Shown in pieces: positions 104-44,231 of a stretch of DNA of 44,231 nucleotides (positions are counted from its first letter, which is position 1; every line of letters begins with the position of its first letter). The DNA comes from Candidatus Vogelbacteria bacterium. GTDB lineage: Bacteria > Patescibacteriota > Minisyncoccia > Phycocordibacterales > UBA12445. A program made the translations under genes and the position numbers. The stretch spans positions 1 to 44,231 of the forward strand of contig JACQCV010000032.1 in assembly GCA_016201465.1 (NCBI GenBank), read 5' to 3'. The notes beneath the pieces are model-generated. The model ran no database searches and was not told the DNA's origin. It worked only from the letters and a program-made list of their open reading frames with translations.

Positions 104-1906
104 TTACATGAACATTTGCGTTTCAACGAGTGTACGATATATCTCACAATTTTTCATCAGATCTTCGTGCTTACCCACTCCAACAACTCGCCCTTTGTCC
201 ATCACAATAATCTTATCCGCATCACGAACCGTTGAAAGTCTGTGAGCAATAATTATTGTAGTCCTTCCAAGTGATACTTCGTCTGTGGCTAATTTTATAA
301 TTTTCTCATTTATCGAATCTATGTTTGACGTAGCCTCGTCTAGAATAAGAATCGCGGGGTTTTTAATAATTGCCCGAGCGATACCAACCCTCTGTCTCTC
401 TCCACCAGAAAGCTCTATGCCATTCTCTCCTATTTCAGTTTCAAAACCTTCCGTCAAACGATCATAGAACTTGTCTATGCACGCAAGCTTAGCAACCCTC
501 TTTAAATCTTCATTGGTTATTGCCGCTCTTTGAGCAGCCGATAGACCGAACAAAATGTTGAATCTTAGGCTATCGTCAAATAATCCAACGTTCTGCTCAA
601 CTAAACCTATGCGACTTCTATAGTCTTCTATCTTGAGGTTTTTTAAATCCTCTTGATCTATTAGTATACGCCCAGCGTTAGGATCGTAAGCCCTCAAAAG
701 CAAATTTATGATGGTGGATTTACCGGCACCAGAAGATCCAACAATCGCGACCTTACTCCCAGCCTCTACCTTAAAACTAATATTCTTTAGTGTGTCCAGA
801 TCAACATTATCGTCTTTACCAATCTTAGAATTAGTCTCCTCCGTCTCAATATATCTCACCTTCGGATAACTGAAAGAGACGTTTTGAAATTCAACCGTAC
901 CAACCTTAGGATATCCTGGCAAAGCGCTTGAAACGTTTTTAATCTCCGGCTCTATATCCAAAATTTGAAAATAGATTTTAACGGCTGCCATCATATCCAA
1001 ACAACGACGGTGGAGATTACCAAGATTTGTGATATTTCCAAAAATCATTTGGGACCAGCCACTCACAATAATAAGATCACCCGGGGTTAAAACCTTCAAA
1101 GTTTCCACATAGTAAAAGCCGAAGTAAAGCACAAGGACGTGTGTTAGAATCATGGAAAGATTGCGAAGAAAATTATAGAAGTGATACTTAATGAAAAGCG
1201 TGATACTGCGTTCGTCATAATGTTTTTTGGTATCCTGAAAGAGATCAACTAAACTTATACCCTGCACATTGAGTATCACTAAAGAAATGTTTCTAAGTAG
1301 CTCGCTTCTTATCTTTTCTGATTTTTGAGAAATTTTTTCCAATTCCTTCATCTCTGGCCAAAATCGTTTGTTCATAAACCAGGAAATGACCAAGAATACA
1401 AAAGAGCCAGTAAATGTAATCAGAGCAATCTGCCAATTAATAAAAATTACAAATAAGCTAGCCAAAAATATCAGACAAAAAATTGGGCAGATTTCGTACA
1501 CAAAGGTAAAGGCTAAAGACGAAAGTGAGTGCTCGCCCTTATTTACCACACTCGCGGTAACGCCTGAATGTTGAGACCTATGTTGGCCAATAGAAAGATC
1601 TAGTACTTTCTCTAGAGTCTTAACTGCCATATGGCGTCTAACCGAGAAATCTACCGCCGACAATTCGTAGTTGTCTTTGAAGGTTCTGACACACAGAGCT
1701 ACAACTGACACGATACCGAAGAGAACAATCAATCCTCTTTCGGCACCAAAACCAGCACGGCTGTACAAAAGATTAAAAGTCTTACCAACAATATATGGTC
1801 CCAGCAAAGACAGAGCCTGCATGAATATCAACAGGAAAGCAATTACCAACATGCCAAATCTAAACGGCTGATAAATCTCGTAAACCCGGGACAGAAACTG
1901 TCTCAT
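104..1906 (-). CDS. ABC transporter, fused permease/ATP-binding protein (type I exporter, MsbA/ABCB-like)
   Basis: 600-aa ORF with a multi-TM N-terminal half. The C-terminal NBD has Walker A GSSGAGKST, signature LSGGERQR, Walker B ILILDEATS and H-loop IIAHRLS. An AAGGAG SD lies upstream of the ATG. Confidence 0.9.
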   Translation of the reverse strand: MRQFLSRVYEIYQPFRFGMLVIAFLLIFMQALSLLGPYIVGKTFNLLYSRAGFGAERGLIVLFGIVSVVALCVRTFKDNYELSAVDFSVRRHMAVKTLEKVLDLSIGQHRSQHSGVTASVVNKGEHSLSSLAFTFVYEICPIFCLIFLASLFVIFINWQIALITFTGSFVFLVISWFMNKRFWPEMKELEKISQKSEKIRSELLRNISLVILNVQGISLVDLFQDTKKHYDERSITLFIKYHFYNFLRNLSMILTHVLVLYFGFYYVETLKVLTPGDLIIVSGWSQMIFGNITNLGNLHRRCLDMMAAVKIYFQILDIEPEIKNVSSALPGYPKVGTVEFQNVSFSYPKVRYIETEETNSKIGKDDNVDLDTLKNISFKVEAGSKVAIVGSSGAGKSTIINLLLRAYDPNAGRILIDQEDLKNLKIEDYRSRIGLVEQNVGLFDDSLRFNILFGLSAAQRAAITNEDLKRVAKLACIDKFYDRLTEGFETEIGENGIELSGGERQRVGIARAIIKNPAILILDEATSNIDSINEKIIKLATDEVSLGRTTIIIAHRLSTVRDADKIIVMDKGRVVGVGKHEDLMKNCEIYRTLVETQMFM

Positions 1907-8885: not shown

Positions 8886-11347
8886 TACTGAACAATTTCT
8901 CTAACTGGCGGCTTACTCCGTTTGGCTGGATCACTAGGCTCACTCTTAGGAGCGACTATATTTTCAAGGGCCCCTCTACCGGCGCTTAAATTACCCAAAA
9001 TAGTTTTAACCTCGGTATTTGTAGGATTAAGATTTGCAATATCCTTAAACTGGCTAATCGCCTCATTTATTTTACCTAGCTTACTGTAACTTAATCCAAG
9101 GAAATATTTGGCATTTGAATAGTTTGGCTGTAAGATAACCGCCTGCGAAAGCGCTCCAACAGCCCCTGAGTAATCTTTGTTAAGATACCTCAAAAATCCC
9201 AACTGAAACAGAATACCCATATCTTGTGGTGAGAAAACAAGGGCTTGTTCCACACTCTTTATGGCACCCGTAATGCTACCTTGATTAGCTTCAATTTGAG
9301 ATAACAGGAACAACGCATCTGTAAAATTACCCTTCTTCTGAAGCGCTAGATCAATATCAACCTTTGCCTTTCCAATATCTCCTTTTGCAACTTCAAGCTG
9401 GGCCAAACCCAAATAAATATTCGGATTTTCCGGCGTTATAGACAGGGCTTTGTTGTATGAATTTAGTGCAAGATCGTAAGAACCAGCGACTACACCCTTA
9501 AGGGGAACAACAGTCTGACCGACCCTGGCAAGAGTTATCCAATTAAGATAATTATTCGGATCAATTTCTGTGGCTCTTCTCGCATTACCCGCAGACGCAC
9601 TGAGAACAGCTTGCAATTTGGACAAGAGGGTCTCCTTTGTGAGCGTCGACTGGCCAGAAAGCAAATTTTTAAGTTCTAAAACATACAAGTCGGCTAAAGA
9701 TCTGTAATAAAGATCCTGTTCATCGAGACTAATCGCCGCCTTAATTCTCCGTTCAGCTGAAATAGCATCACCCAAAATATTTGCACTATAAAGACCCTTC
9801 TGGAAATTATAAACTGCCAAAAACTTTCGACCAAGCAAGTACCCGCAAGAAACAGTTGAAATAATCAAAATCACAAGAACTAATACTGAGATAAATCCCA
9901 ATCTTGGATTATTAAAGAATTGAAACTCGTAATTTCTTATATATTCAACCCTAGACAAGGAAGCAATAAATATACCTGTGAAAATAAAAGTCAACACCAA
10001 AATCACAGTATCAGTTACGTAAAAGACCGAGAAGGACCAAAGATAAAGAGCTGCCACAAAGGATGAAAAGACAAGTAATTGATCAAATATATTTTCCGCG
10101 GGTCTTAAAATCGATTTAAGACCAAGATAAATCAAAGACAGTAGGAATATACTAAAACTCAAAACACCAAACAAACCGAGAGTCACCGCCAGTGAAGGTA
10201 TCCTCCCAAATCCAACATTAAAATCAGTGTTCCAAAAAGCCGTACCATTAACCGCCTGTGGCTTCAATGCTGCCCATTGTTCAGAAAAGGTGTTTGGACC
10301 GCTACCAAAAAACAAGTCTTTTTTCATAGATCTTCTAGCGACGTCTATGGTTGACTGCCACGATGGTCGTACCTCTAATTGGAAAATGCCATAACTACCC
10401 AAGAACGACCCAACTCCATTTGTTGAAAAAAATAAAATTAGGCACAGCACAAAAACAACGAATGATGGCCTATAGACAATTTTTTTAATCCATCCCACTC
10501 GAGACTGTTCATTGTCATCGTCATCCGCCAATTCAATAGGCTGTAAGAGGCCGCCATATGCAAGTGAGTAAATAAAAATAATTAGTGTAAAGATACCAAT
10601 AATGGCCCAGATTAAATCGTAATTCACAAGAGCCACGATTATTAGAGATACAATCAGAAATAGGTGCATTAATCGCTTCTTGCCACTAGCTAAGTTTGGA
10701 ATAAATTCTAAAATAAGCAGTGACAATATTGTGGAAAGACCAAAAAGAACCCCGAGATCATTCAATTTTCCAATAAAATTAGTCAGGGTACCTCCAAGAA
10801 AAACAATGCCTGGATGTATAACTTGGACTAGTTGCAATGCACCAATGACGGCAAGCGATAATAAAAGACCAAAAATGTAACCCGCCAACCTCTTTTTCGA
10901 TTCAAAAAACGTCGAGGCTAAAAATAAACTCAAAAACAACAAGGTAATTGAAATGAAAGTGTCGTTCTCAAAACCTAAACCAAATAATGATTGCCCAACA
11001 GAAGAGGATAGCAGGGAAGAAATCAAAAAAGAAGCTAGGACAGATAGACTAGTCCAAAAAACTAAACCACCAGGAAATTCTAAACGTCCATCCTCAAGTC
11101 TTGTGATAAGCCATAAAAAGAAAGATAACAATATTCCGCCAGAAAACAAAAGTTTTTTGGCAAATTCGATTTGAATTCCGGAAACCAATGGAGGTACAAT
11201 TAACGGAATTAGAATTATGGTTAAGAAAAAAACAAAATATGACAGCTTGCCAACAAAAGGCAACTTTCTAAAAAAACCAGTGCGTGGAGCACCCTCAACC
11301 TCAACATTTTCATCATCGACAATAATATCGACTTCAAGTTCTTGCAT
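8885..11347 (-). CDS. Polytopic membrane protein (O-antigen ligase/Wzy-like, tentative) with C-terminal TPR domain
   Basis: 820 aa. The first ~530 aa form many hydrophobic helices. The C-terminal ~280 aa contain repeated 34-aa TPR-like units (..YNKALSITPENPNIYLGLAQL.., ..AVILQPNYSNAKYFLGLSY..). The stop overlaps the murJ start. Confidence 0.65.
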   Translation of the reverse strand: MQELEVDIIVDDENVEVEGAPRTGFFRKLPFVGKLSYFVFFLTIILIPLIVPPLVSGIQIEFAKKLLFSGGILLSFFLWLITRLEDGRLEFPGGLVFWTSLSVLASFLISSLLSSSVGQSLFGLGFENDTFISITLLFLSLFLASTFFESKKRLAGYIFGLLLSLAVIGALQLVQVIHPGIVFLGGTLTNFIGKLNDLGVLFGLSTILSLLILEFIPNLASGKKRLMHLFLIVSLIIVALVNYDLIWAIIGIFTLIIFIYSLAYGGLLQPIELADDDDNEQSRVGWIKKIVYRPSFVVFVLCLILFFSTNGVGSFLGSYGIFQLEVRPSWQSTIDVARRSMKKDLFFGSGPNTFSEQWAALKPQAVNGTAFWNTDFNVGFGRIPSLAVTLGLFGVLSFSIFLLSLIYLGLKSILRPAENIFDQLLVFSSFVAALYLWSFSVFYVTDTVILVLTFIFTGIFIASLSRVEYIRNYEFQFFNNPRLGFISVLVLVILIISTVSCGYLLGRKFLAVYNFQKGLYSANILGDAISAERRIKAAISLDEQDLYYRSLADLYVLELKNLLSGQSTLTKETLLSKLQAVLSASAGNARRATEIDPNNYLNWITLARVGQTVVPLKGVVAGSYDLALNSYNKALSITPENPNIYLGLAQLEVAKGDIGKAKVDIDLALQKKGNFTDALFLLSQIEANQGSITGAIKSVEQALVFSPQDMGILFQLGFLRYLNKDYSGAVGALSQAVILQPNYSNAKYFLGLSYSKLGKINEAISQFKDIANLNPTNTEVKTILGNLSAGRGALENIVAPKSEPSDPAKRSKPPVREIVQ

Positions 11348-32722: not shown

Positions 32723-33724
32723 CTATATCACATCTCTACCATAGCGCCCATCCTCACTGGCGACTGACTCACGAGATGTATAAAGGTAATCGAATCCAAA
32801 CTTTTTAGTTATTTTTGATCCGTCTATAAGGATGGGATAACAAAATAACCTCCAACTACCCCTGGAAGTTGGTATCTTACCCCTAGACAAATGCCACAAC
32901 AGAAAAAAAATAAAATTGATCACGAGCGGCGGAAGCGTGATTAAGCTCTTGTGTAAAATCTTGGCCACTTCACTGGCTAAGATAAGGTCTGTAGCCGCAA
33001 GGTTAAGAATCTCAAAAGTGTTCTGCTTGACAAAATCTGCAAATGTAAACATAGCGATAACATCTGTTACATCATCTTCGTGTACATATTGCTTACACCA
33101 TTTATCATTCGCCACAGGAAAAAAGGGTAGATCATCGTGTTTATCAATTGATCTTCCTCTTGGCCCGTAAGTTGATGCCAACCTAAGAACAAAAACCTGC
33201 TTCGCCTCATTACACATATTATATAAATCCAAAAGTAATCTCTCTGCCTCTTTTTTTTGCTGGCAACTAAGCGTATCTAATTCTTTTAATTTATCTGTCT
33301 CAGAGAAAAAGTGTTCAAGATTATTATCTGGAAACGCACCATATACAGACGCATCACTGAGAAAAATCAATTTTTTAACAAATTGATTTTTAAACGCAAA
33401 TTCAAAAACCTCTCGGGAACTGGTAAGATTTAACTCGTTTTGCAGCTCCACCCGTCCATACGGTTCTCTAGTCTGCCAGGCTGCATGGATGACGACCTCT
33501 GGCTTATTGATTAACGCTGGAATCTTCCAAACATTTTGATACAAATTGGATGTGATCCAGACAATCTTTTTATTCTCCCTCAACAATTCCGGCATAGGTG
33601 CCATATCTACAGCGACAATCATCTCGAGATCCGGGCTCTTTGAAAATTGATCGCACAACATCGTACCAATATACCCAGCCGCACCAGTAATCATTATTAC
33701 TCTGGGGGACTTAAATTTTGACAT
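32723..33724 (-). CDS. NAD-dependent epimerase/dehydratase (extended SDR)
   Basis: Start set to ATG 33724, overlapping the upstream TGA (TGATG). Rossmann motif ITGAAGYIG. Located in the envelope glycan cluster. Confidence 0.75.
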   Translation of the reverse strand: MSKFKSPRVIMITGAAGYIGTMLCDQFSKSPDLEMIVAVDMAPMPELLRENKKIVWITSNLYQNVWKIPALINKPEVVIHAAWQTREPYGRVELQNELNLTSSREVFEFAFKNQFVKKLIFLSDASVYGAFPDNNLEHFFSETDKLKELDTLSCQQKKEAERLLLDLYNMCNEAKQVFVLRLASTYGPRGRSIDKHDDLPFFPVANDKWCKQYVHEDDVTDVIAMFTFADFVKQNTFEILNLAATDLILASEVAKILHKSLITLPPLVINFIFFLLWHLSRGKIPTSRGSWRLFCYPILIDGSKITKKFGFDYLYTSRESVASEDGRYGRDVI

Positions 33725-35067
33725 CACATTCCTACACAAGATAAAACAATTTGAAGAGTCCGAAATGCGATCTTTATGTCGAGCCAGAAAGATCTGTGTT
33801 TTAAATAAAATAAATCGAATGAAAGTTTTTCACGAGTTGCTTCTATGGCTGTCCCATGGTGTGGATGTCCTTCCTGATAGATCTGAGCCCAACCCGAAAG
33901 TCCAGGCTTAATCAAATGACGAATACCATAAAATGGAATCTGTGCTTCATATTCTTTAACAAGCGGCAAAAACTCTGGACGTGGCCCAACCAAAGAAAGA
34001 TCTCCTCGAATAACATTCCAAAGCTGTGGCAACTCATCTATACGGGTTTTTCGAAGAAACGATCCTACCTTAGTTGTACGAAGTGTGGTTTTACCGCCGA
34101 TATAATTACCACCATCATTGCCCGTCATGGTCCGAAATTTATATATAGAAAAGATGTGTCCATACTGACCGACACGCTCTTGCCTTATAAAAAAACGCCC
34201 GCGATCCTCCAACCAAATTAAAAGTGCAGCGATAGGATAAAGTGATAAAGTAATTATTCCAAGAACAAGAGCAAGTAAAATATCCATTATTCGCTTCAAT
34301 ATGTCATAGACCCGAGAATTTTCGGCGATGACGCTTTCAATAAACCACCAATCATTAACCTTAGATAACGGTATTCGGTCAAAAAGTTCTTCAAAATAGG
34401 AGTCGACATCAACAAATTTAATTTTTGAATAGTTATCTACGCCGAGAGACGCAGCCAAGTTTTTTTCGAGCTCATTTCTAAAGTGGATCATAACAACAGA
34501 AATATGCTCACTCCTTATGAGGTTAATTAGACTTTCACGCACAAGGTTACTTGGCCGACGAATAACCCTGTATCCATGGAATGGATTTATTGCCAACTCC
34601 TCAGCTATTAAGTCCGCTTCAACACTATTTCCGATTAGCAGGAGGATTTCTGGGCGACTGCTGTACAGTAACGGTGAAATAAAAAGTCTCCAGATGATCA
34701 TTAAAAAACTAGATAAGACGAAATATATAAAAAGATTTGTTTTAGGAGTCAGTCCGAAATAAGGAATGAAATAAAATAGAACCACAGCCAGCAGACTGTT
34801 AACAATCTGAGCGTTGATTATGGTAGAAAGAATTTTTCGCCGAAAAACAATAGTCTGTTTACCGTATAGGTTGAAAATAAAAAAAACTAACAACCAAAGT
34901 AGAATCGCCGGCGTAAATGCAAGAATATGACCAAAGAATAGCTGATTATACTGACCAGTGGTTTGACCTGAATAACGTACAAAAAGAGTAAGCCATATGG
35001 CCGAAACAAAACACAAAATATCTCCCAAAGCTAAGATAAATTGTTCTTTCTTTCTACCTATAATCAT
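33724..35067 (-). CDS. Polyprenyl-phosphate sugar phosphotransferase (WbaP/Bac_transf family initiating transferase)
   Basis: 447 aa with N-terminal TM helices. C-terminal catalytic domain has FIRQERVGQYGHIFSIYKFRTM and DELPQLWNVIRGDLSLVGPRPE. Confidence 0.9.
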   Translation of the reverse strand: MIIGRKKEQFILALGDILCFVSAIWLTLFVRYSGQTTGQYNQLFFGHILAFTPAILLWLLVFFIFNLYGKQTIVFRRKILSTIINAQIVNSLLAVVLFYFIPYFGLTPKTNLFIYFVLSSFLMIIWRLFISPLLYSSRPEILLLIGNSVEADLIAEELAINPFHGYRVIRRPSNLVRESLINLIRSEHISVVMIHFRNELEKNLAASLGVDNYSKIKFVDVDSYFEELFDRIPLSKVNDWWFIESVIAENSRVYDILKRIMDILLALVLGIITLSLYPIAALLIWLEDRGRFFIRQERVGQYGHIFSIYKFRTMTGNDGGNYIGGKTTLRTTKVGSFLRKTRIDELPQLWNVIRGDLSLVGPRPEFLPLVKEYEAQIPFYGIRHLIKPGLSGWAQIYQEGHPHHGTAIEATREKLSFDLFYLKHRSFWLDIKIAFRTLQIVLSCVGM

Positions 35068-35127: not shown

Positions 35128-36252
35128 ATGCACGAAAAGACCAAGATTTTATACGTCATCACTAAATCCAACTGGGGCGGGGCGCAAAAATACATTTTTG
35201 AGCTTGCGATAAATCTGCCCAAAGATAAATTCGACGTCGCGGTTGTACTAGGGGGTAACGGGGTCTTAGCAGGTAAGCTTCAAAAAGAACATATAAAAAC
35301 AATCAACTTACCTAGTTTAGAACGGGATATAAACTTTTTTAGGGAGTTTATTGTCTTATTCGATTTAATTAAAATTTTTAGACATGAGAAGCCAAATATT
35401 ATTCACCTCAACAGCTCCAAAATAGGCGGCCTGGGATCCCTCGCCGGCCGCATTTACCCTCTACTAAAAAACAGACGCTCAACCCCAAACCCTAAGATAG
35501 TTTTCACTGCCCACGGATTCGCCTTTAATGAGGATAGACCAAAAATTGTAAAAATGATCCTGTTCATACTGAACTACATTACGATACTCTGGAGTCATAA
35601 AGTTATTATCATCAACGAACATGAATTGAACCAAGTTAAGAGTTTACCGTTTATTCAGAGAAAACTCGAACTTATACATCTAGGTGTTCGGCCAATCACT
35701 GGATTAAGAGTCAATAAAGATATTGGCAGCCCAGTTGCAATTGGCACAATATCAGAACTTACAAAAAATAAGGGGCTTCAATATGTAATAGAGGCTATCG
35801 CTAGATTAAAAAATAAAAATATTACGTTTACTATCATTGGCGAAGGCGAAGAAAGAAATCATTTAACATCGTTAATTTATCAAAATAATATTGCCGACAA
35901 GGTGCAATTACTTGGATTCAAAGAAAGCGCAACCTCATATTTAAATCTTTTCGACATCTTTACTCTCACATCGGTAAAAGAGGGACTTCCCTACTCTATC
36001 CTCGAGGCTGGACTCGCCGGACTCCCGGTTGTCGCATCAAATGTCGGGGGTATTGGAGAAATAATTAAAAAAGACAAATCCGGAATTTTTGTTGAGCCTA
36101 AATATGTCGAGCTAATTGTTGTGGCCTTATCACAGCTCATCGATAGTCCAACACTTAGAAAAACTTTCGGCCAAAATCTCAAAAAAACAGTTGAGCAAAA
36201 ATTCTCTATCGAGCAAATGATCGAGAAGACAAAGGCATTGTACGAAAAGTAA
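35128..36252 (+). CDS. Glycosyltransferase family 4 (GT-B, GT1/GT4)
   Basis: 374 aa with a C-terminal EX7E region SVKEGLPYSILEAGLAGLPVVASNVGGIGEII. Confidence 0.85.
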   Translation: MHEKTKILYVITKSNWGGAQKYIFELAINLPKDKFDVAVVLGGNGVLAGKLQKEHIKTINLPSLERDINFFREFIVLFDLIKIFRHEKPNIIHLNSSKIGGLGSLAGRIYPLLKNRRSTPNPKIVFTAHGFAFNEDRPKIVKMILFILNYITILWSHKVIIINEHELNQVKSLPFIQRKLELIHLGVRPITGLRVNKDIGSPVAIGTISELTKNKGLQYVIEAIARLKNKNITFTIIGEGEERNHLTSLIYQNNIADKVQLLGFKESATSYLNLFDIFTLTSVKEGLPYSILEAGLAGLPVVASNVGGIGEIIKKDKSGIFVEPKYVELIVVALSQLIDSPTLRKTFGQNLKKTVEQKFSIEQMIEKTKALYEK

Positions 36253-36413: not shown

Positions 36414-37379
36414 ATGAACTTCGATATTGAGAAACATACAATTCTACGGCTTGTGCACGGGTCACACGCGTACAGAACCAACACCCCAGACAGCGATATG
36501 GATCTCCGAGGAGTAGCAATTCCCCCAGAGCCGTACTTCCTAGGGTTCCACAGTATCTTCGAGCAGAATATTGTCGGTCAAAATGGATCTGATGAAGATA
36601 CCGTCATATACGATATCCGCAAGTTTTTCAAACTTGCTGTCGATTGCAATCCGAACGTCATCGAACTTCTGTATGTCCCGGATCGATGCATCCAGTTCGC
36701 AACTACAATCGGTGAGAAGATACTGGCCAACCGTGACCTATTTTTGTCGCAGAAAGCCAAGTTCAAGTTCTCTGGATTCGCCATGGCGCAAATGAAGAGG
36801 ATGAAGACTCACCGTGGATGGCTTCTATCGCCACCAAACCACGAGCCTACTCGCGCCGAGTACGGACTCGGGCCAAATCCCGAACTCTCACCTGTTGTTC
36901 GTGAGGCAATTAAATTGTTAATCAAAAGTAATATTGATCTCTCTCGAATTCTCAAGGAAGAGGCAGTTGAAGCCTACAAAAAGGAGAGGGCTTACCACAA
37001 CTCAGTCGAAACATGGAGCCACTTCCTCAAGTGGAGAAGCGAAAGAAACCCCGCTAGAGCTAAACTCGAGGCTAAGTTCGGCTATGACACAAAAGATGCA
37101 ATGCATCTAGTTCGCGTCATGCGGATGGCTAAAGAGATCATCCTAACCGGCAAAGTTCTCGTAGAGAGACCTGACAGAGAGGAACTTCTCGCAATCAAGC
37201 ACGGCGCCTGGAAGTACGAAGAGATCCTTGGGTGGGCTGATAAACACGACACTGAAATCAATGAGATCTACGACGACCCGGCGCGTAACTGTGTTCTACC
37301 CCACACTGCGAACATGAACAAGCTTGAGAATCTCTGCGTCGAGCTCAACAAGGAATTCTTGGATTTCAAGAAGGTGTAA
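36414..37379 (+). CDS. Pol-beta-superfamily nucleotidyltransferase (COG3541 / PF10127-like)
   Basis: 321 aa. HGSHAYRTNTPDSDMDLRGV gives the GS..(n)..DxD NTase motif. C-terminal helical domain KDAMHLVRVMRMAKEIILTGKV as in this family. AAGGGAG SD. Confidence 0.75.
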   Translation: MNFDIEKHTILRLVHGSHAYRTNTPDSDMDLRGVAIPPEPYFLGFHSIFEQNIVGQNGSDEDTVIYDIRKFFKLAVDCNPNVIELLYVPDRCIQFATTIGEKILANRDLFLSQKAKFKFSGFAMAQMKRMKTHRGWLLSPPNHEPTRAEYGLGPNPELSPVVREAIKLLIKSNIDLSRILKEEAVEAYKKERAYHNSVETWSHFLKWRSERNPARAKLEAKFGYDTKDAMHLVRVMRMAKEIILTGKVLVERPDREELLAIKHGAWKYEEILGWADKHDTEINEIYDDPARNCVLPHTANMNKLENLCVELNKEFLDFKKV

Positions 37380-38126: not shown

Positions 38127-38912
38127 ATGAAACTTAAAATTGGAACATATAACATTGCTCACGGTAGAGGCACAGCCAAAAGTAATTGGAGCGGCGGGAC
38201 ACTCAATGAGAGAGGACTGCGGCTCGAAGAGATCGCGAAAGTGATCATGCCATTGGATATCGTAATCCTAAACGAAGTAGACTTTGCCGCCCCGTGGTCA
38301 TGGTGGATACAGAATCAGGCAGATATCTTAAAGAATTTTGCCAGATTCAACTATATGGCCACGGCCATGAACAACCGAATTATCTGGCACTCCGGACTGG
38401 CGATCCTAAGCAAGTATCCAATCATTAACAGTGAAGTTATCAGGCTTCCTCAATACTTTAAGTGGTGGACTTCAGTTGGATACCGCAAGGACGCACTCTC
38501 AGCAACTGTCCAATTACCGAGCGGTCAGCAGATCAAAATTATTGCTGTGCATCTAGATTATCACAGCGACTCAACAGTCAGGCGACCCTCGGCAGAAATC
38601 CTAATTGATTACGCAAAAAAACAAACGATCCCCGTTATCATGGCCGGAGACTTCAACAACGTTCCGACAGGATTCCCTGGACTGCGCGACGAGCCACCAA
38701 CAGCACTAGACGTAATTCGTGAAAGCAGGCTCTTCAATTACCGGCCGATCGTAAATCCCACGGCCGAACAGATGACATTTCACTCACTCAACCCCTGGCT
38801 GGTGATCGACTGGATTTTTACTCCAAAGAACTGGCAGGTTGTCGAATACAAAGCTATCGACACTAGTCTATCAGACCATAAGCCTGTCATCGCAGAAGTT
38901 GAAATAGTATAA
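38127..38912 (+). CDS. Endonuclease/exonuclease/phosphatase (EEP) family protein, no signal peptide, paralog 1
   Basis: 261 aa with IGTYNIAHGRG, IVILNEVDF, AVHLD, MAGDFNN and LSDHKPV. AAAGGAG SD. Confidence 0.8.
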   Translation: MKLKIGTYNIAHGRGTAKSNWSGGTLNERGLRLEEIAKVIMPLDIVILNEVDFAAPWSWWIQNQADILKNFARFNYMATAMNNRIIWHSGLAILSKYPIINSEVIRLPQYFKWWTSVGYRKDALSATVQLPSGQQIKIIAVHLDYHSDSTVRRPSAEILIDYAKKQTIPVIMAGDFNNVPTGFPGLRDEPPTALDVIRESRLFNYRPIVNPTAEQMTFHSLNPWLVIDWIFTPKNWQVVEYKAIDTSLSDHKPVIAEVEIV

Positions 38913-38918
38913 ACACTA

Positions 38919-38954
38919 ATCCCCATAACGACAATATCGGCATGGGGATCTTTC
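38919..38954 (+). terminator. Hairpin terminator (weak T-run)
   Basis: ATCCCCAT/ATGGGGAT stem with a 15-nt loop, then CTTTC. Confidence 0.45.
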
Positions 38955-39062
38955 ATGACATCTAGCTACTATTGACTTTAGCCTATACATCTGCTTCTAT
39001 TAGATTGTAGGGGGTAGTTCTTTAAAAAAATCAACAAATATTGAAAAAACGGAGGTTATTCG

Positions 39063-39839
39063 GTGAGAGTCAAAATTGGTACCTACAACATTGCGCATGG
39101 GTGCGGAGTAGCTTCAAATAGGTGGCAAGGTGGTAGTATGAGTCATCGATCATATCGGTTGATGGCAATTGCTGCTCTGATCAAAGACATGGATGTAGTG
39201 GTTCTGAACGAAGCTGACTTCAGTGCGCCCTGGTCATTCTGGATACACAATCACGAAACGATAATGAAAGGGCTCGCGGATTTCAAATACAGTATGTCTG
39301 TGGAAAATAGCACAGTTGGCTGGCAATCGGGCAATGTGATTCTCAGCCGGTATCCACTCAGTAACAGAGAAATTATTGCCCTTCCACAGCATTCACCAGT
39401 GGCAGGTTTCCGAAGAGACGCCCTCGCTGCGACGGTAACACCACCGAACGGTAAGGCCTTCAAAATTGTCGCGGTTCACCTGGACTGGCACTCGTTTTCT
39501 CGAGTACGACGTCTGTCAATTCTTGCACTGTTTAGCTACATGCAAAAACAGACACTACCAGTTGTGATCGCCGGAGACTTCAACTCGACACCTTTCAGTT
39601 TTCCACACTGTCAGGATCTAAATCCAACAGCATTGGATATCATGATTCAAAGTAAAGCATTCATAACTCATCCGATGGTACACCCACTGCCCGAGACACT
39701 AACCTTCCCATCGTATGATCCGAAGCTTGTGCTAGACTGGATCTTTGTTCCTACATTCTGGAAAATCTTAGACTATCGAACTCGAGATGTTCTTTTCTCC
39801 GACCATCGGCCAATCCTTGCCGAATTTGAAACAGGATAG
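39063..39839 (+). CDS. Endonuclease/exonuclease/phosphatase (EEP) family protein, paralog 2 (GTG start)
   Basis: 258 aa, alignable along its full length to 38127-38912 (IGTYNIAHGCG, VVVLNEADF, AVHLD, IAGDFNS, FSDHRPI). GGAGG SD 7 nt before the GTG. Confidence 0.8.
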   Translation: MRVKIGTYNIAHGCGVASNRWQGGSMSHRSYRLMAIAALIKDMDVVVLNEADFSAPWSFWIHNHETIMKGLADFKYSMSVENSTVGWQSGNVILSRYPLSNREIIALPQHSPVAGFRRDALAATVTPPNGKAFKIVAVHLDWHSFSRVRRLSILALFSYMQKQTLPVVIAGDFNSTPFSFPHCQDLNPTALDIMIQSKAFITHPMVHPLPETLTFPSYDPKLVLDWIFVPTFWKILDYRTRDVLFSDHRPILAEFETG

Positions 39840-39919: not shown

Positions 39920-40300
39920 TTATGAAAAATCTCCAGCTCTTTCTTTTCTAATTTTTCTAACCGCTGAGTACGCCTCCTTCTTAAGTTTCTCAACGCCTTC
40001 TTTATACGAATCAGCAATCTTCCTAATTTCAGGGTTTGCAAAATCCTCGGAGCCAATACCAATGTTCAACACCGCCTCTTCCAAGGATTTTCCACCATCA
40101 CCGTCGGTGATTTTTTTAAGATTCAAATATTCTTCAGATGAAGATAGATTCCTCAATGCTGATTCCTCTAAGGCTCTTTTTACCATACCAGCCACCCACG
40201 CCTTACGAGAATGGCGATCTATTCTATCTGCAGCGACCTGATTTTCTTCATGTATCTGTTCATCTGTCTTTACAGATGCACCAAATAATTTTTCTAACAT
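39920..40300 (-). CDS. Hypothetical helical protein (126 aa)
   Basis: ORF with no recognised family, downstream of the duplicated SEDS 3' end. Confidence 0.5.
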   Translation of the reverse strand: MLEKLFGASVKTDEQIHEENQVAADRIDRHSRKAWVAGMVKRALEESALRNLSSSEEYLNLKKITDGDGGKSLEEAVLNIGIGSEDFANPEIRKIADSYKEGVEKLKKEAYSAVRKIRKERAGDFS

Positions 40301-40352
40301 ATATCTATTTACATTTATTTATAATACCAAAATTATACCCCCCCAACAAATA

Positions 40353-40404
40353 ATCAAACTGGGCCGAAGAATTCGTTTTTCATGTTATCGCGGTGAGTGG
40401 CGCG
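40353..40404. repeat. Left 52-bp direct repeat: orphan copy of the SEDS gene 3' end
   Basis: 49/52 identical to 41638-41689. On the minus strand it encodes RATHRDNMKNEFFGPV* like the real gene end, and the three mismatches are all synonymous. Confidence 0.85.
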
Positions 40405-40406
40405 TA

Positions 40407-40433
40407 ACTGTGCGAGGCTAAGCCTCGCACAGT
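40407..40433. repeat. REP-like hairpin, copy 1
   Basis: ACTGTGCGAGGC-taa-GCCTCGCACAGT, a perfect 12-bp stem abutting the transposase stop codon. Identical to 41163-41189. Confidence 0.85.
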
Positions 40434-41135
40434 TTATACAATAACATCATTTTCAAATGTTAAATCTGCAACTACATCAAAGCTCATATTCTTAAGCCAT
40501 TCTTTCATCTCCCCCTTCTGTCTTAACGGGTTACCTAATATTTCTAACAATAAATCCCTATAAATAATTGACGGATAATTTTTTACACCAATATAATCTA
40601 AATAACTTGACCATCTATATTCATTCAAAAATTTAAAGGCATTATTATAATCTTTAAGTTTTTGTTCACGCCAAGATGGATACGATAGGTCTAAGGGATT
40701 CAGGTGTATATAATATGGCAAATAGTTAAAATAAGCTTCATTTTTTACTGAGATTGCCTTAAACGGTCCCTGAAAAAGTGAGCCGACACGCCTATGTTTC
40801 TTATTAAAATACATTGTATACGCCGTACCAAGTTTATGCATAAAAACAGTGATAGCAGAATCGTTTAGGGGTTCAATTAAAAAATGAAAATGATTTGGCA
40901 TAAGAACAAAAGAATGAATACGAACTAACGACTTGTGTTCAATATCCAGATTCATTGTTTCGTCAAATTCATTTTTGTCCCTGAAACTATTTACCGCTGG
41001 AGCAATATCATTACAAAAATACATACTTCTCAAGAAACGAAATCTATCACCATCGTTCATAAATATATCCCGCTTTTCCACTCCTCGGTTATATATATGG
41101 TAAATCTCACCTTCTACAAAATTTAATTTTCTCAT
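40434..41135 (-). CDS. REP-associated tyrosine transposase (RAYT; IS200/IS605-type Y1 HUH transposase family)
   Basis: Start reset to ATG 41135 (MRKLNFVEGEIYHIYNRG). HUH motif LMPNHFHFLI, catalytic Tyr region LPYYIHLNPL, and RRVGSLFQGPFKA. Confidence 0.85.
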   Translation of the reverse strand: MRKLNFVEGEIYHIYNRGVEKRDIFMNDGDRFRFLRSMYFCNDIAPAVNSFRDKNEFDETMNLDIEHKSLVRIHSFVLMPNHFHFLIEPLNDSAITVFMHKLGTAYTMYFNKKHRRVGSLFQGPFKAISVKNEAYFNYLPYYIHLNPLDLSYPSWREQKLKDYNNAFKFLNEYRWSSYLDYIGVKNYPSIIYRDLLLEILGNPLRQKGEMKEWLKNMSFDVVADLTFENDVIV

Positions 41136-41162
41136 ATCACCTAGTATAACCCATAATACAAA

Positions 41163-41189
41163 ACTGTGCGAGGCTAAGCCTCGCACAGT
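41163..41189. repeat. REP-like hairpin, copy 2
   Basis: Identical 27-nt hairpin 27 nt upstream of the transposase ATG, followed by a partial re-duplication TTGCACAGTT. Confidence 0.85.
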
Positions 41190-41213
41190 TTGCACAGTTG
41201 GCCTTGTCCAAGT

Positions 41214-41432
41214 CTACGAAAAAAGATTTCTGTCTTTATACAACAAAAAGGCGAGGATTGAGTTTACTAATCCAAGAAATACGAAGTTACCAACTAAATC
41301 TATGAGATGTTTTAATGGTGGCAAGGCTATCCATGGAAAGGAAATAAGTAGTGACGGAATTGGGATAAATATTAAAAAGAAAATAATGTGAGCAATCTCA
41401 ACCATATATGCCCATTTTTTAAGACTTCGCAA
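41214..41432 (-). CDS. Small hydrophobic ORF (72 aa, TTG start), possibly a fragment of a decayed membrane-protein gene
   Basis: Two hydrophobic helices. Two further short hydrophobic ORFs in other frames lie just upstream on the minus strand (41433-41612). Confidence 0.35.
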   Translation of the reverse strand: MRSLKKWAYMVEIAHIIFFLIFIPIPSLLISFPWIALPPLKHLIDLVGNFVFLGLVNSILAFLLYKDRNLFS

Positions 41433-41637
41433 CGCAAAAAAACTTTAATATAAAAAATACCGAGTATAATAAATAAAACTTGGTACCATTCATGTAAAGG
41501 TGCGTCAATAATCACGTAATCATCCCACTTAGAAATGCCATGAACATGCAGTCTAAACCCACTAAAAAGGCAAAACCTGACGCAAATTTGATTTTTCCAA
41601 TTGATTGCATGTGATTAAGTAATCATATCTAGCACAA

Positions 41638-41689
41638 ATCAAACTGGGCCGAAGAATTCGTTTTTCATGTTATCGCGATGGGTAGCGCG
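41638..41689. repeat. Right 52-bp direct repeat (functional 3' end of the SEDS gene)
   Basis: See 40353-40404. Confidence 0.85.
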
Positions 41690-42742
41690 GGAGTAGCGAC
41701 GCATGCCCATCAGAATTCCCAGTCCAGCAAATTCTGTAAGTAAGTGTGAGCCGCCATAACTGACAAATGGCAAAGTTATACCTGTTACGGGCAGAAGTCC
41801 AAGATTCATGCCAACATTTATCGTGATATGACTGGTAATAAAAATAGCCAGACCAATACCAAACAAAACTTCAAAATTTGATGAACCGATAAAACTATTG
41901 TATAGAATACGCCAGATAACAATCCCAAAGAAAAAGAGCATAAGGAAGACTCCTGCAAAACCCCACTCTTCGGCAAAGGCGGCAAAGATAAAGTCTGTTT
42001 GATATTCTGGCAAAAATTTAAGATGAGACTGAGTACCATAACCAATCCCTTTCCCAAATATTTGTCCCGAACCAACAGCAATCTGCGATTGAAGAGCATT
42101 ATACCCACCACCTCGCACATCCGCTGATGGATTCATAAAGTTCTCTATTCTTTGCTTCTGGTAGGGTTTAAAAACATATTCCCATAAAACAGTAAATGAT
42201 AAAAGCCCTATCAAAAAAACTAAAAACAAGTGTCTCTTGGAAACACCCGAAACCATCACCATGCCTAGCCAAATACAAAAAATGATAATCGCGGAACCAA
42301 GTGCCGGCTGCAGTAGTATGAGAACGAATGGAATTAATGTATAAATACCCGAGACCAAAATATGTCGAAAATGTGCAATCTCAATATGCCTTCTAGAAAA
42401 ATATTTTGACAAAATCAGAATCAGGACCAGCTTAAAAAAGTCAGCCGGCTGAAGCGAAACCGTGCCCAGGTCAATCCAACTCCGTGCACCCTTAATGCTT
42501 TTCATCATAAATAGTAACGTAAGAAGCGCGGTTGAAAATAAAAAGAGGCCAACCAAAATATCGGTTCTTTTTATAAACCTCCAGTCTATGTAACTAAAAA
42601 TAAGAAAGACAGAGATAGAGACCAGGATCCAGATCAACTGTTTAATCGCAAGAAGGTTATCACCCGTAAATGAGACCATAGTGATAAATCCAAAAAAAAG
42701 CAGGGGCAATAGAGCCAATGCAAGTATCCAGTCAATTTTCAT
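41639..42742 (-). CDS. SEDS-family peptidoglycan glycosyltransferase (FtsW/RodA/SpoVE)
   Basis: 367 aa with 10 TM helices. Motifs are SLQPADFFKLVLILILSKYF, PEYQTDFIFAAFAEEWGFAG and LPFVSYGGSHLL. Confidence 0.9.
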   Translation of the reverse strand: MKIDWILALALLPLLFFGFITMVSFTGDNLLAIKQLIWILVSISVFLIFSYIDWRFIKRTDILVGLFLFSTALLTLLFMMKSIKGARSWIDLGTVSLQPADFFKLVLILILSKYFSRRHIEIAHFRHILVSGIYTLIPFVLILLQPALGSAIIIFCIWLGMVMVSGVSKRHLFLVFLIGLLSFTVLWEYVFKPYQKQRIENFMNPSADVRGGGYNALQSQIAVGSGQIFGKGIGYGTQSHLKFLPEYQTDFIFAAFAEEWGFAGVFLMLFFFGIVIWRILYNSFIGSSNFEVLFGIGLAIFITSHITINVGMNLGLLPVTGITLPFVSYGGSHLLTEFAGLGILMGMRRYSRATHRDNMKNEFFGPV

Positions 42743-43859: not shown

Positions 43860-43971
43860 GTGTTGGCGACTAGCTACTTTCCCCTTCCATAGAGTATCAT
43901 CGCTACTATGGTGCTTAACTTCTGAGTTCGGAATGTTATCAGGTGTACCCACCACGTTAAATCACCAACAC
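43860..43971 (-). rRNA. rrf: 5S ribosomal RNA
   Basis: The minus strand contains CCGAACTCAGAAGTTAAGC. Terminal helix GTTGGTGA/TCGCCAAC. About 108-112 nt, downstream of the 23S. Confidence 0.9.
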
Positions 43972-44027
43972 ACAACGCTCGATCGAGCGCTATAATTTTT
44001 TAAAAAACATATTTCGTGACGTTCAAA

Positions 44028-44231
44028 TTTCCTAATAGGAATCGATCCATTAGTACTCCTCGGCTGAACGCATTACTGCGCTTACACCTAGAGCCTATCC
44101 CCGAACATATTACTATGCCCGAGCCCTTACAGGACCCAATCATCTCTTGGGGATCTCAAACGATTACTAATCGTAAAGTCGGCTTCCCTCTTAGATGCTT
44201 TCAGAGGTTATCCAATCCAGACTTAGCTACA
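44028..44231 (-). rRNA. rrl: 23S ribosomal RNA, 3' end (partial, continues beyond the window)
   Basis: The minus strand reads ..CTGAAAGCATCTAAG..GGTGTAAGCGCAGTAATGCGTTCAGCCGAGGAGTACTAATG.., matching the conserved 3' domain of bacterial 23S. The exact 3' end is approximate. Confidence 0.9.

What the first reader, a model, noticed from the sequence alone, without database searches (positions are those of the whole stretch)
40353..41689. RAYT-type transposase between identical REP-like hairpins, in a 1.2-kb insertion flanked by a synonymous-only 52-bp duplication of the SEDS (FtsW/RodA) gene end
Seen directly: (i) The 27-nt perfect hairpin ACTGTGCGAGGC-taa-GCCTCGCACAGT occurs twice and identically. 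One copy abuts the stop (40407-40433) and the other lies 27 nt upstream of the ATG (41163-41189) of a 233-aa ORF carrying HUH (NHFHF) and YYIHLNP motifs. (ii) Positions 40353-40404 repeat 41638-41689 at 49/52 identity. The right copy is the true 3' end of the SEDS gene. The left copy still encodes the same 16 residues plus stop (RATHRDNMKNEFFGPV*), and all three mismatches are third-position synonymous changes. Established knowledge: IS200/IS605 and RAYT enzymes act on hairpin DNA and do not create target duplications. Integrative elements that target gene 3' ends do carry a replacement copy of the target end. Inference: a cassette of hairpin, RAYT, hairpin and decayed cargo was imported, by recombination or site-specific integration, together with a homologous gene end from a related lineage. 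That would explain coding-constrained divergence in a now non-coding copy. A single-copy RAYT with its own cognate hairpins in a reduced genome, plus an att-like structure on an essential cell-wall gene, is unusual.
Basis: partly seen in the sequence, partly recalled or inferred. Interest (0 to 1): 0.72.

Follow-up and report, generated by a model that had tools for sequence, protein, structure and literature searches.

The report
RAYT cassette with orphaned rodA end
A hairpin-flanked RAYT-type (HUH/Y1) gene sits just after the cell-wall gene rodA in a Patescibacteria genome, and next to it lies a displaced 53-base copy of the rodA end, a scar that recurs in related genomes and suggests the block arrived by recombination anchored in rodA.

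Summary
A 53-nt direct repeat (40352-40404 / 41637-41689, 50/53 identical) copies the last 16 codons and stop of rodA. All three mismatches are synonymous. A 29-nt perfect palindrome occurs exactly twice in the window, bracketing an intact 233-aa Y1/HUH ORF whose predicted fold best matches the E. coli RAYT-REP complex.

- The palindrome is a dispersed REP-like repeat in related Patescibacteria MAGs.
- All six complete RAYT homologue loci examined have flanking hairpins.
- The 440-nt "cargo" is a frameshifted pseudogene of a 125-aa membrane protein. That gene is intact in a collinear block (rodA end-hairpin-gene-hairpin-RAYT-hairpin) in relative L036.
- The relatives closest by RodA have empty sites.
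- Orphan rodA ends recur in L035, L026 and L021. In L035 the 72-nt orphan abuts the 3' hairpin and all 11 differences are synonymous.

Best reading: a REPtron-like cassette, imported with a foreign rodA end into a variable region between rodA and a glycosyltransferase gene, displaced the resident end. Orphan start points vary and no integrase is present, so this is not att-type integration.

The RAYT family itself is common in these bacteria, not unusual. A direct role for RAYT or the hairpin in forming the junction is unproven.

The parts
41639..42742 (-). rodA (SEDS peptidoglycan polymerase), full length, 367 aa
   Evidence: It passes TIGR02210 rodA_shape (346.3 bits, cut-off 336.7) and Pfam FTSW_RODA_SPOVE (290 bits). 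The closest homologues are 75-79% identical and share the conserved tail RRYSRATHRDNMKNEF[FL]GP[VI].
41637..41689 (-). Resident copy (R) of the 53-nt repeat: the last 16 codons, the stop and 2 nt of the functional rodA
   Evidence: It is contiguous with the rodA reading frame.
41196..41636 (-). Pseudogene of a small (125-aa) membrane protein. An ATG lies at about 41610, the frame is broken at least twice, and the longest surviving frame is 41214-41432.
   Evidence: It is collinear with the intact 125-aa ORF of L036 (110-487). Window 41217-41438(-) is 59% identical to residues 51-124 of that ORF (tblastn E 1e-26). The N-terminal part reads in other frames and ends in stops. No Pfam family matched, and a search with the window's reconstructed peptide found no homologues.
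41161..41191 (.). Upstream REP-like perfect palindrome (AAACTGTGCGAGGCT-A-AGCCTCGCACAGTTT), 27 nt before the RAYT ATG. On the minus strand it also looks like a terminator.
   Evidence: The same core is found at the same position in L009, L035 and L036.
40434..41135 (-). Intact RAYT-like Y1/HUH gene, 233 aa (HUH at H82/H84; Y142 and N146 in YYIHLNP)
   Evidence: It passes Pfam Y1_Tnp (33.2 bits, cut-off 23). It falls below the NCBIfam REP_Tyr_transpos cut-off (39.3 bits against 80). H82, H84, Y142 and N146 are invariant in 32 homologues. The best PDB fold match of the AlphaFold model is 4ER8, the E. coli RAYT-REP complex (E 3.6e-5, TM 0.64 on the target), followed by IS608 and ISDra2 TnpA.
40406..40434 (.). 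Downstream REP-like perfect palindrome. It overlaps the last base of the RAYT stop codon and is followed after 1 nt by the orphan rodA end.
40352..40404 (-). Orphan copy (L) of the rodA 3' end (RATHRDNMKNEFFGPV* plus 2 nt), in no ORF and with no usable start codon
   Evidence: nhmmer score 47.9, E 1.8e-13. The three differences from R are all synonymous. Its codon variant GCC ACT CAC is used by functional rodA genes of other lineages, L031 and L033.
39920..40300 (-). 126-aa lineage-specific ORF directly downstream of the orphan end (context)
   Evidence: No Pfam or NCBIfam family matched. In 1.84 billion representative proteins, only three repeat proteins matched, each over a motif of about 36 aa.
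38127..39839 (+). Two Exo_endo_phos paralogues, convergent with rodA (context). The distal one (38127-38912) is the orthologue of the gene that directly follows rodA in L020.
   Evidence: It is 63% identical to L020 6167-6955.
35128..36252 (+). GT4 glycosyltransferase: the conserved far border of the variable region, followed by Bac_transf at 33724-35067(-)
   Evidence: In L022, L030 and the P0123 contig, this GT4/Bac_transf pair follows rodA directly.

Best explanation
The 233-aa ORF is an intact member of a very large Patescibacteria branch of the RAYT-like Y1/HUH family. It lies between two copies of its cognate perfect palindrome, a REPtron-like arrangement. In related genomes that palindrome is a dispersed REP-like repeat.

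The block [rodA end - small membrane-protein gene - hairpin - RAYT - hairpin] exists as a unit downstream of rodA in related organisms. In this lineage it entered a variable region between rodA and a glycosyltransferase gene by recombination. One side was anchored in the highly conserved 3' part of rodA. The other side was joined, right at the outer edge of the 3' hairpin, to a point 16 codons before the resident stop codon. rodA therefore kept a complete (incoming) end, and the previous end was pushed downstream as a non-coding 53-nt orphan.

**Shown:** the anatomy, the homologies, the empty sites, the recurrence, and the coding-type divergence of the orphans.

**Inferred:** the direction (which copy is foreign), the recombination pathway (homology-facilitated illegitimate recombination, or Campbell-type insertion of a circle), and the reason the junction sits at the hairpin (a stable hairpin blocking exonucleases on single-stranded DNA, or nicking by RAYT).
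For: **RAYT identity**
- Pfam Y1_Tnp is passed.
- The HUH histidines and the tyrosine are invariant in 32 homologues.
- The best fold match is 4ER8.

**Cognate REP**
- The 21-nt hairpin core occurs in 7 Patescibacteria MAGs. There are at least 10 copies in one MAG and at least 7 in another, most of them away from any RAYT.
- All six complete RAYT loci have hairpins on both sides. Three different hairpin types are involved.

**Unit structure**
- L036 is collinear with window 41670->40406 and carries the membrane-protein gene intact.

**Gain rather than inheritance**
- By RodA the window is closest to L020 (82% over the shared C-terminal region). L035 is closest to L022 and L030 (85-86%). All three of those have no cassette.
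- The conserved frame is rodA ... GT4-Bac_transf.
- The insert has 33.2% GC, which places it at the low extreme of 1.2-kb stretches in the window (fraction of stretches at or below it 0.0012; median 40.3%).

**Orphans are displaced functional ends**
- Window: 3 of 3 differences synonymous (P about 0.007).
- L035: 11 nt differences in 10 codons, all synonymous (0 of 300,000 random sets did as well).
- L026: 7 of 7 synonymous (0 of 200,000). Its codon choices match the functional allele of L024.
- In L021 two orphans lie in a row, and the one farther from rodA is the more decayed. This is what successive displacement predicts.

**Junction position**
- The orphan starts 0 nt after the 3' hairpin in L035 and 1 nt after it in the window.

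**Precedent**
Against: - No close relative (over 90% identity) was available. No true pre-insertion allele was seen, and a sliding-window comparison of rodA found no mosaic boundary.
- The 40 identical nt in the 3' part of the repeat, against 3 differences in the first 12 nt, need an extra assumption. Either a crossover or conversion tract lies inside the repeat, or this stretch is simply very conserved (29/30 identical to L036).
- L009 has the cassette but no orphan. The L036 contig ends at the hairpin, so its state is unknown.
- Relative to L020, the 126-aa ORF and a second Exo_endo_phos gene are also extra. The orphan's 'native context' is therefore not demonstrated.
- Homology-facilitated illegitimate recombination is reported to be rare in tested bacteria (PMC5361080).
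- Natural transformation in this organism is assumed, not shown.
Confidence: 0.68

Rival explanations
1. Site-specific integration. The cassette is an integrative element whose attachment site mimics the rodA 3' end, as phage 21 and e14 do with icd. The recombinase would be the RAYT itself or an enzyme acting in trans. The two 53-nt copies would be attL and attR.
For: A replacement gene end with synonymous differences is the classic signature of such elements (own knowledge of the icd/phage 21 case). The scar recurs at the same gene in four lineages. Two junctions lie exactly at the RAYT's own hairpin.
Against: The orphans begin at different codons: R352 in the window, M345 in L035, around K359 in L026, and two further positions in L021. 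There is therefore no fixed crossover point. No tyrosine or serine recombinase lies in or near the insert. L026 has an orphan without any RAYT. Known Y1 transposases insert next to 4-5-nt targets and make no duplications (own knowledge; PMC6006769 background).
Confidence: 0.12
2. Old, vertically inherited REPtron downstream of rodA. The orphan would date from an ancient event and look intact only because the resident gene repeatedly converts it, or because rodA itself was later replaced by a foreign allele.
For: RAYTs are generally single-copy and vertically inherited (PMC5581495). rodA-RAYT adjacency is seen in five other loci (L009, L021, L028, L035, L036) as well as the window. The 40-nt identical tract in the window repeat could be a conversion tract.
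Against: A neutral orphan should collect mostly non-synonymous-type changes. Across the window, L035 and L026, none of 21 differing nucleotides is of that type. The window and L035 orphans differ from each other at 9 of 51 nt, and 8 of the 9 affected codons are synonymous. The distribution is patchy, with cassette-free genomes as nearest RodA relatives.
Confidence: 0.1
3. In-situ duplication: a target-site duplication, or a tandem duplication with later deletion, made when the cassette inserted, followed by drift.
For: Direct repeats flanking an insert are the usual mark of insertion.
Against: 53-79 nt is far longer than transposase-made duplications, and Y1 enzymes make none (own knowledge). 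The differences between the copies are of coding type only. Four of the six RAYT cassettes examined have no flanking duplication.
Confidence: 0.04
4. Assembly artefact: two strain alleles of the rodA end were joined into one contig.
For: Synonymous-only differences are what two co-assembled strains would show. The window is a metagenomic contig (one search lists it as a 44,231-nt contig).
Against: The hairpin and the rodA end share no sequence that could create a k-mer join at 40404/40406. The same architecture appears in independent assemblies from NCBI, JGI and ENA samples.
Confidence: 0.04

Closest known systems
REPtron: RAYT (TnpA_REP) gene flanked by its cognate REP hairpins (E. coli YafM/4ER8; Pseudomonas REPIN-RAYT systems)
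   Same: It has a Y1/HUH core with HUH and a single catalytic Tyr, and its best fold match is 4ER8. The gene is bracketed by copies of one palindrome, and that palindrome is dispersed in intergenic positions of related genomes. Different RAYT lineages carry different hairpins.
   Different: It scores below the NCBIfam RAYT equivalog cut-off (39 against 80 bits). It has an extension of about 80 aa C-terminal to the catalytic Tyr motif. The hairpin is a perfect 14+1+14 palindrome with no GT[AG]G or CGTC tag. Copy number is low (tens at most). The host is Patescibacteria. The cassette appears to have been gained horizontally, whereas REPtrons are described as not moving as a unit (PMC6006769; PMC5581495).
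IS200/IS605 insertion sequences (IS608, ISDra2)
   Same: Same enzyme superfamily and fold. Subterminal hairpins flank the gene. Single-stranded DNA chemistry is expected.
   Different: The hairpins at the two ends are identical rather than distinct left-end and right-end structures. There is no tnpB. No sign of multiple identical gene copies was found (one copy in the window). REP copies outnumber the gene.
C-terminal displacement with orphan 3' ends (Rhs, CDI and T6SS effector-immunity arrays), proposed to arise by homology-facilitated illegitimate recombination
   Same: A conserved 5' part of a gene acts as anchor. The incoming DNA supplies a new 3' end plus cargo. The old ends persist downstream as orphans, with older ones farther away and more decayed, as in L021 (PMC5361080).
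   Different: Here the displaced and incoming ends encode the same peptide, so there is no functional diversification. The gene is a housekeeping cell-wall polymerase. The cargo is a RAYT cassette. Two junctions coincide with a REP hairpin.
Prophage or element integration into the 3' end of a protein gene with a replacement end (phage 21 and e14 in E. coli icd)
   Same: A duplicated gene end, differing mainly at synonymous sites, flanks an insert, and the target gene stays intact (own knowledge; compare).
   Different: There is no integrase, no fixed crossover site and no phage genes. No RAYT relative was found in viral contigs.

Membership tests
Y1/HUH transposase superfamily (Pfam PF01797) | Profile match above the curated threshold | tested here: met
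   33.2 bits against a gathering score of 23, over residues 64-144.
Y1/HUH transposase superfamily (Pfam PF01797) | HUH metal-binding motif and a single catalytic tyrosine on the C-terminal helix | tested here: met
   NHFHF (H82, H84) and YYIHLNP (Y142, N146) are invariant in 32 family members. A profile built from these homologues aligns the HUH region to ISDra2 TnpA, although weakly (E 0.04).
Y1/HUH transposase superfamily (Pfam PF01797) | Fold of solved family members | tested here: met
   Foldseek top hits are 4ER8 (E 3.6e-5), IS608, ISDra2 and IS200 TnpA. The model is only moderate overall (mean pLDDT 64; the core is 70-90).
RAYT / REPtron | Gene immediately flanked by copies of one palindromic repeat | tested here: met
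   Window hairpins at 40406-40434 and 41161-41191. The same holds in L008, L009, L018, L021 and L028, and in L035 and L036.
RAYT / REPtron | The flanking palindrome is over-represented and dispersed in the same genome | tested here: inconclusive
   Only 44 kb of this genome is available, and it holds just the two flanking copies. In related MAGs the same core is dispersed: at least 10 copies in JBBUBG01 and at least 7 in CAYUDR01, most not next to a RAYT.
RAYT / REPtron | NCBIfam equivalog NF047646 (REP_Tyr_transpos) cut-off | tested here: not met
   39.3 bits against a cut-off of 80. It is therefore a distant branch and not an equivalog of the characterised RAYTs.
RAYT / REPtron | REP carries the 5' GT[AG]G (or CGTC) guide tetranucleotide and an imperfect stem | tested here: not met
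   The hairpin is a perfect palindrome, AACTGTGCGAGGCT-A-AGCCTCGCACAGTT, with no such tag. Atypical untagged structures are, however, described for some subclasses (PMC6006769).
RAYT / REPtron | Enzyme binds and cleaves its REP as single-stranded DNA | not testable with these tools
   This needs biochemistry.
IS200/IS605 insertion sequence | Several near-identical copies of the whole element, distinct left and right subterminal hairpins, often tnpB | tested here: not met
   There is one gene copy in the window. The hairpins at both ends are identical. No tnpB-like ORF is adjacent. In the MAGs, hairpins outnumber RAYT genes.
Integrase-driven integrative element with att duplication | Element-encoded tyrosine or serine recombinase and a fixed crossover site in the target | tested here: not met
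   No recombinase domain was found among the ORFs scanned with Pfam between 33.7 and 43.8 kb. Orphan start points differ between lineages.
3'-end displacement by anchored (homologous plus illegitimate) recombination | An orphan end in the same orientation downstream of an intact gene, diverged as a functional allele, with older orphans more distal and more decayed | tested here: met
   Window, L035 and L026 show synonymous-only divergence. L021 has two orphans with graded decay. The recombination pathway itself is not testable here.

The most novel reading that the evidence does not exclude
The RAYT cassette is a horizontally mobile unit that 'homes' to the 3' end of rodA. RAYT, or its hairpin, would define the right end of a single-stranded transfer intermediate by nicking just 3' of the outer REP. 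The carried rodA end would serve as the homology arm, so each new insertion restores rodA and orphans the resident end. That would be a mode of whole-REPtron mobility not described for RAYTs, which are regarded as immobile, vertically inherited genes.
Probability: 0.2. Interest if true: 0.8.

Novelty: new variant of a known kind. Interest (0 to 1): 0.56.

Why it matters
RAYT-REP systems are described mainly from Proteobacteria and are treated as vertically inherited genes that do not move as a unit. Here a distant but very abundant Patescibacteria branch shows the REPtron anatomy. It also carries molecular scars (orphaned, coding-type-diverged rodA ends) indicating that the cassette, or at least the DNA carrying it, has been exchanged between lineages several times at the same essential gene.

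If the hairpin or the enzyme sets the junction, this would be a testable case of a HUH enzyme promoting gene-end-anchored integration. If not, the locus is still a clear natural example of anchored illegitimate recombination in an uncultivated, reduced-genome phylum. It would also serve as a marker of recent gene flow.

Tried and rejected
- **Exact-sequence look-ups** of the window's RodA and RAYT products found nothing on record.
- **Single-sequence phmmer against the PDB** gave only spurious Mediator hits. A profile gave a weak ISDra2 hit. The fold search was needed to settle the family.
- **The 440-nt spacer** had no similarity to the loci held at that point (tblastx/blastn). It matched no Pfam family and had no hit in the 5.8-billion-protein search. 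It was identified only when L036 was fetched.
- **The 126-aa ORF** has no real homologues, so it could not be used to show that the orphan sits in its native context. The ORF downstream of the L035 orphan also matched nothing.
- **A sliding-window comparison of rodA** with nine relatives showed no change of nearest relative. The relatives are too distant to detect a mosaic.
- **A general test for gene-end duplications around other RAYT cassettes** (L008, L009, L018, L028, and L015/L010) found none. The duplication is therefore not a property of RAYT insertion as such.
- **Viral contigs** held no RAYT relative. The single hairpin match lies in a 61%-GC contig inside a GIY-YIG ORF and is judged unrelated.
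- **Hairpins as plain terminators.** This fits the upstream copy. It does not explain identical copies on both sides of RAYT in every lineage, or dispersal of the hairpin across genomes.
- **Remnant of a deleted tandem rodA paralogue.** Rejected because none of 12 rodA loci has two full copies and the orphans are too similar to the resident alleles.
Full report
**1. Observation**

The window is a Patescibacteria-type chromosomal contig. It has 40.6% GC, two tRNA genes, and a 5S gene and the 3' end of a 23S gene at 43861-44231. The named hits in the protein searches point to Patescibacteria.

- Positions 40352-40404 and 41637-41689 form a 53-nt direct repeat, 50/53 identical.
- Both copies read RATHRDNMKNEFFGPV* on the minus strand.
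- The right copy is the true end of a full-length RodA (TIGR02210, 346 bits, above the cut-off).
- The three mismatches are third-position C/T transitions. Random triples of substitutions leave the peptide unchanged in only 0.7% of simulations. All three lie in the first 12 nt.
- The palindrome AACTGTGCGAGGCT-A-AGCCTCGCACAGTT occurs at 40406-40434 and 41162-41190 and nowhere else in the window, even with three mismatches allowed.
- The palindrome folds as single-stranded DNA at -16 to -17 kcal/mol.
- Apart from two diverged Exo_endo_phos paralogues and a few weak low-identity matches, these are the only substantial repeats in the 44 kb.

**2. The ORF**

The ORF at 40434-41135(-) encodes 233 aa.
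- It passes Pfam Y1_Tnp (33.2 bits against 23). It stays far below the NCBIfam RAYT equivalog cut-off (39.3 against 80).
- It belongs to a very large family. More than 4,300 homologues were found, about 230 aa long, and every named hit is from Patescibacteria.
- In an alignment of 32 members, H82 and H84 (the HUH motif), Y142 and N146 are invariant.
- An AlphaFold model (mean pLDDT 64; core 70-90) matches the E. coli RAYT-REP complex 4ER8 best (E 3.6e-5). IS608, ISDra2 and IS200 transposases follow.

It is therefore a genuine Y1/HUH protein and is closest in fold to RAYTs. It forms a distant branch and is not an equivalog of the characterised enzymes.

**3. The hairpin is a REP-like family tied to the gene**

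- An exact scan for the 21-nt core across one genome per species found it in seven Patescibacteria MAGs.
- One MAG has at least 10 copies on eight contigs. Another has at least 7, with clusters of variants.
- Most copies are not next to a RAYT.
- Where RAYT homologues were found (L008, L009, L010/L015, L018), the hairpin is adjacent to them.
- All six complete RAYT loci examined have hairpins on both sides. The same is true of L035 and L036.
- More distant RAYTs carry different palindromes. L021 has CTTGGGGTCCCGGACCCCAAG. L028 has CGGAGATCCGATCTCCG.

This is the REPtron pattern described for RAYTs (PMC6006769; PMC5581495). It differs in that the palindrome is perfect, lacks the GT[AG]G tag, and has a low copy number.

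**4. The 440 nt between rodA and the hairpin**

This stretch reads in three frames, each with stops. At first it matched nothing.

Locus L036, which holds a RAYT 70% identical to the window's, resolved it. L036 carries rodA end - hairpin - intact 125-aa membrane ORF - hairpin - RAYT - hairpin. It is collinear with window 41670->40406. Window 41217-41438(-) is 59% identical to residues 51-124 of that ORF (E 1e-26). The start codon region is recognisable near 41610, but the frame is broken.

**5. The surroundings are a variable region**

| Locus | What follows rodA |
|---|---|
| L022, L030, P0123 contig | convergent GT4 glycosyltransferase and Bac_transf, directly |
| L020 (closest RodA, 79%) | Exo_endo_phos and Lactamase_B between rodA and GT4 |
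| L009 | only hairpin-RAYT-hairpin between rodA and GT4 |
| L031, L033 | unrelated ORFs |
| Window | pseudogene, RAYT cassette, orphan end, a 126-aa ORF without homologues, two Exo_endo_phos genes, two further ORFs, then GT4 and Bac_transf |

No recombinase domain was found among the ORFs scanned in this region.

**6. Gain, not inheritance**

- Over the shared RodA region, the window is closest to L020 (82%). L035 is closest to L022 and L030 (85-86%). All three of those lack the cassette. The window and L035 are only 80% identical to each other.
- The segment between the two repeat copies has 33.2% GC. This places it at the low extreme of 1.2-kb stretches in the window, where the median is 40.3%.

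**7. The orphan rodA end recurs**

An nhmmer profile of 81-nt rodA ends found extra copies in three of the 12 rodA loci used for the profile (the window, L021 and L026). All are just downstream of rodA and in the same orientation. L035, fetched later, adds a fourth lineage.

| Locus | Orphan | Distance to 3' hairpin | Differences from resident end |
|---|---|---|---|
| Window | 53 nt | 1 nt | 3 nt, all synonymous |
| L035 | 72 nt, 1494-1565 (MSMRRYSRATHRDNMKNEFFGPI*) | 0 nt | 11 nt in 10 codons, all synonymous; 0 of 300,000 random sets do as well |
| L026 | 27 nt, about 155 nt after rodA | no RAYT present | 7 nt, all synonymous; codon choices match the functional allele of L024 |
| L021 | two orphans, 79 nt and about 57 nt | a different hairpin type and a reversed RAYT lie between the two orphans | both decayed, the distal one more so |

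Other RAYT cassettes that are not next to rodA show no flanking gene-end duplication.

**8. What this means**

Copies that differ only at synonymous sites must have diverged while both were parts of functional genes. That implies divergence in different genomes, followed by recent juxtaposition. A neutral orphan would collect mainly non-synonymous-type changes, and none is seen in three lineages.

The 3' border of every repeat lies 2 nt after the stop codon. That is where homology between lineages ends. The 5' borders differ between lineages: R352 in the window, M345 in L035, about K359 in L026, and two other positions in L021. This combination fits recombination anchored in the conserved rodA 3' region with a non-homologous join at the other end. 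The same outcome arises if a circle carrying a rodA end inserts by a single crossover. A fixed att site would not produce it.

The process resembles the C-terminal displacement proposed for Rhs and T6SS effector loci through homology-facilitated illegitimate recombination (PMC5361080). It also resembles the replacement gene ends carried by elements that integrate into icd (own knowledge), but without an integrase.

Assembly error is unlikely. The hairpin and the rodA end share no sequence that could create the join, and the architecture recurs in independent assemblies. Read-level confirmation is still lacking.

**9. Open point**

In both the window and L035, the non-homologous join lies within 0-1 nt of the outer edge of the 3' hairpin. 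Two cases are few. If the events are independent, as the different orphan lengths and the RodA relationships suggest, the coincidence hints that the hairpin sets the end of the transferred DNA. There are two candidate mechanisms:
- the hairpin passively blocks exonucleases on single-stranded DNA;
- RAYT nicks beside its REP.

Neither can be tested here. Which copy (L or R) is foreign is also undecided, because the nearest relatives are too distant.

**10. Verdict**

- The 'att-like' reading does not fit the variable orphan start points or the absence of an integrase.
- The claim that such a RAYT is unusual in a reduced genome is wrong, because the family is abundant in Patescibacteria.

The locus is a new variant of known kinds: a REPtron-like cassette in Patescibacteria combined with a gene-end displacement scar. 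It is of moderate interest. The interest would be considerably higher if the enzyme or hairpin proves to direct the insertion.

Noticed in passing
window 40406-40434 and 41161-41191; L009 47-73 and 815-841; L035 hairpin cores at 736 and 1470; L036 three hairpins: In RAYT sense, the loop of the upstream hairpin is TAA and that of the downstream one is TTA in L009, L035 and L036, so the two are in inverted orientation. In the window both are TTA, so they are in direct orientation. The upstream window hairpin is also preceded by a partial copy of its left arm (AACTGTGC-A-AACTGTGCGAGG).
   Followed up: partly
L036 1-60 compared with window 41600-41640: L036 has a third hairpin directly after the rodA stop codon. 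The window has none there, so the resident rodA in the window lacks the hairpin or terminator that follows rodA in L009, L025, L028, L035 and L036.
   Followed up: no
L018 1-8000 (CAYUDR010000058.1): A dense cluster of hairpin variants (at 1, 45, 780, 5081/5097, 6499, 6529, 6663, 7424 and 7467), including closely spaced pairs reminiscent of REP doublets. The MAG is labelled Planctomycetia, but its RAYT and repeats are Patescibacteria-like.
   Followed up: partly
L014 3619-3671 and 4566-4626; L012 43-112 and 1608-1690: Pairs of the same hairpin, each accompanied by a second palindrome family (AGCACACAGGGTAGTCCTGTGTGCT in L014; TAGGGTTCCCCTAGCC in L012), bracket 0.9-1.6 kb segments with non-RAYT ORFs. 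Hairpin pairs may therefore flank other cargo as well.
   Followed up: no
L028 about 905-925 (minus strand): A near copy of that locus's own flanking hairpin (CGGAGATCCGATCTTCGGATC) lies inside the RAYT coding sequence.
   Followed up: no
L035 1380-1470: The called RAYT product of L035 is 207 aa. The region homologous to the C-terminus (KGMSFNLIEDKSFESASDL*) continues in another frame, so the gene is frameshifted or the contig has an error.
   Followed up: no
window 38127-38912 and 39063-39839: Two tandem Exo_endo_phos paralogues, 49% identical. Only the distal one is orthologous to the single gene of L020 (63%).
   Followed up: partly
L037 9963-9983 (IMGVR_UViG_3300020577_004181): The only viral-contig match to the hairpin core lies inside a GIY-YIG-type ORF (9355-10314) on a 61%-GC contig, with different flanks. 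It is probably unrelated.
   Followed up: partly
L020 1-2377 and L033 294-1558: GIY-YIG and LAGLIDADG endonuclease genes lie a few kb upstream of rodA in relatives, at the position where the window has its 5S/23S rRNA genes (43861-44231). They may be rRNA-intron homing endonucleases.
   Followed up: no
window 36414-37379: An RlaP-type nucleotidyltransferase (RNA repair pathway DNA polymerase beta family) lies inside the variable region between rodA and GT4.
   Followed up: no
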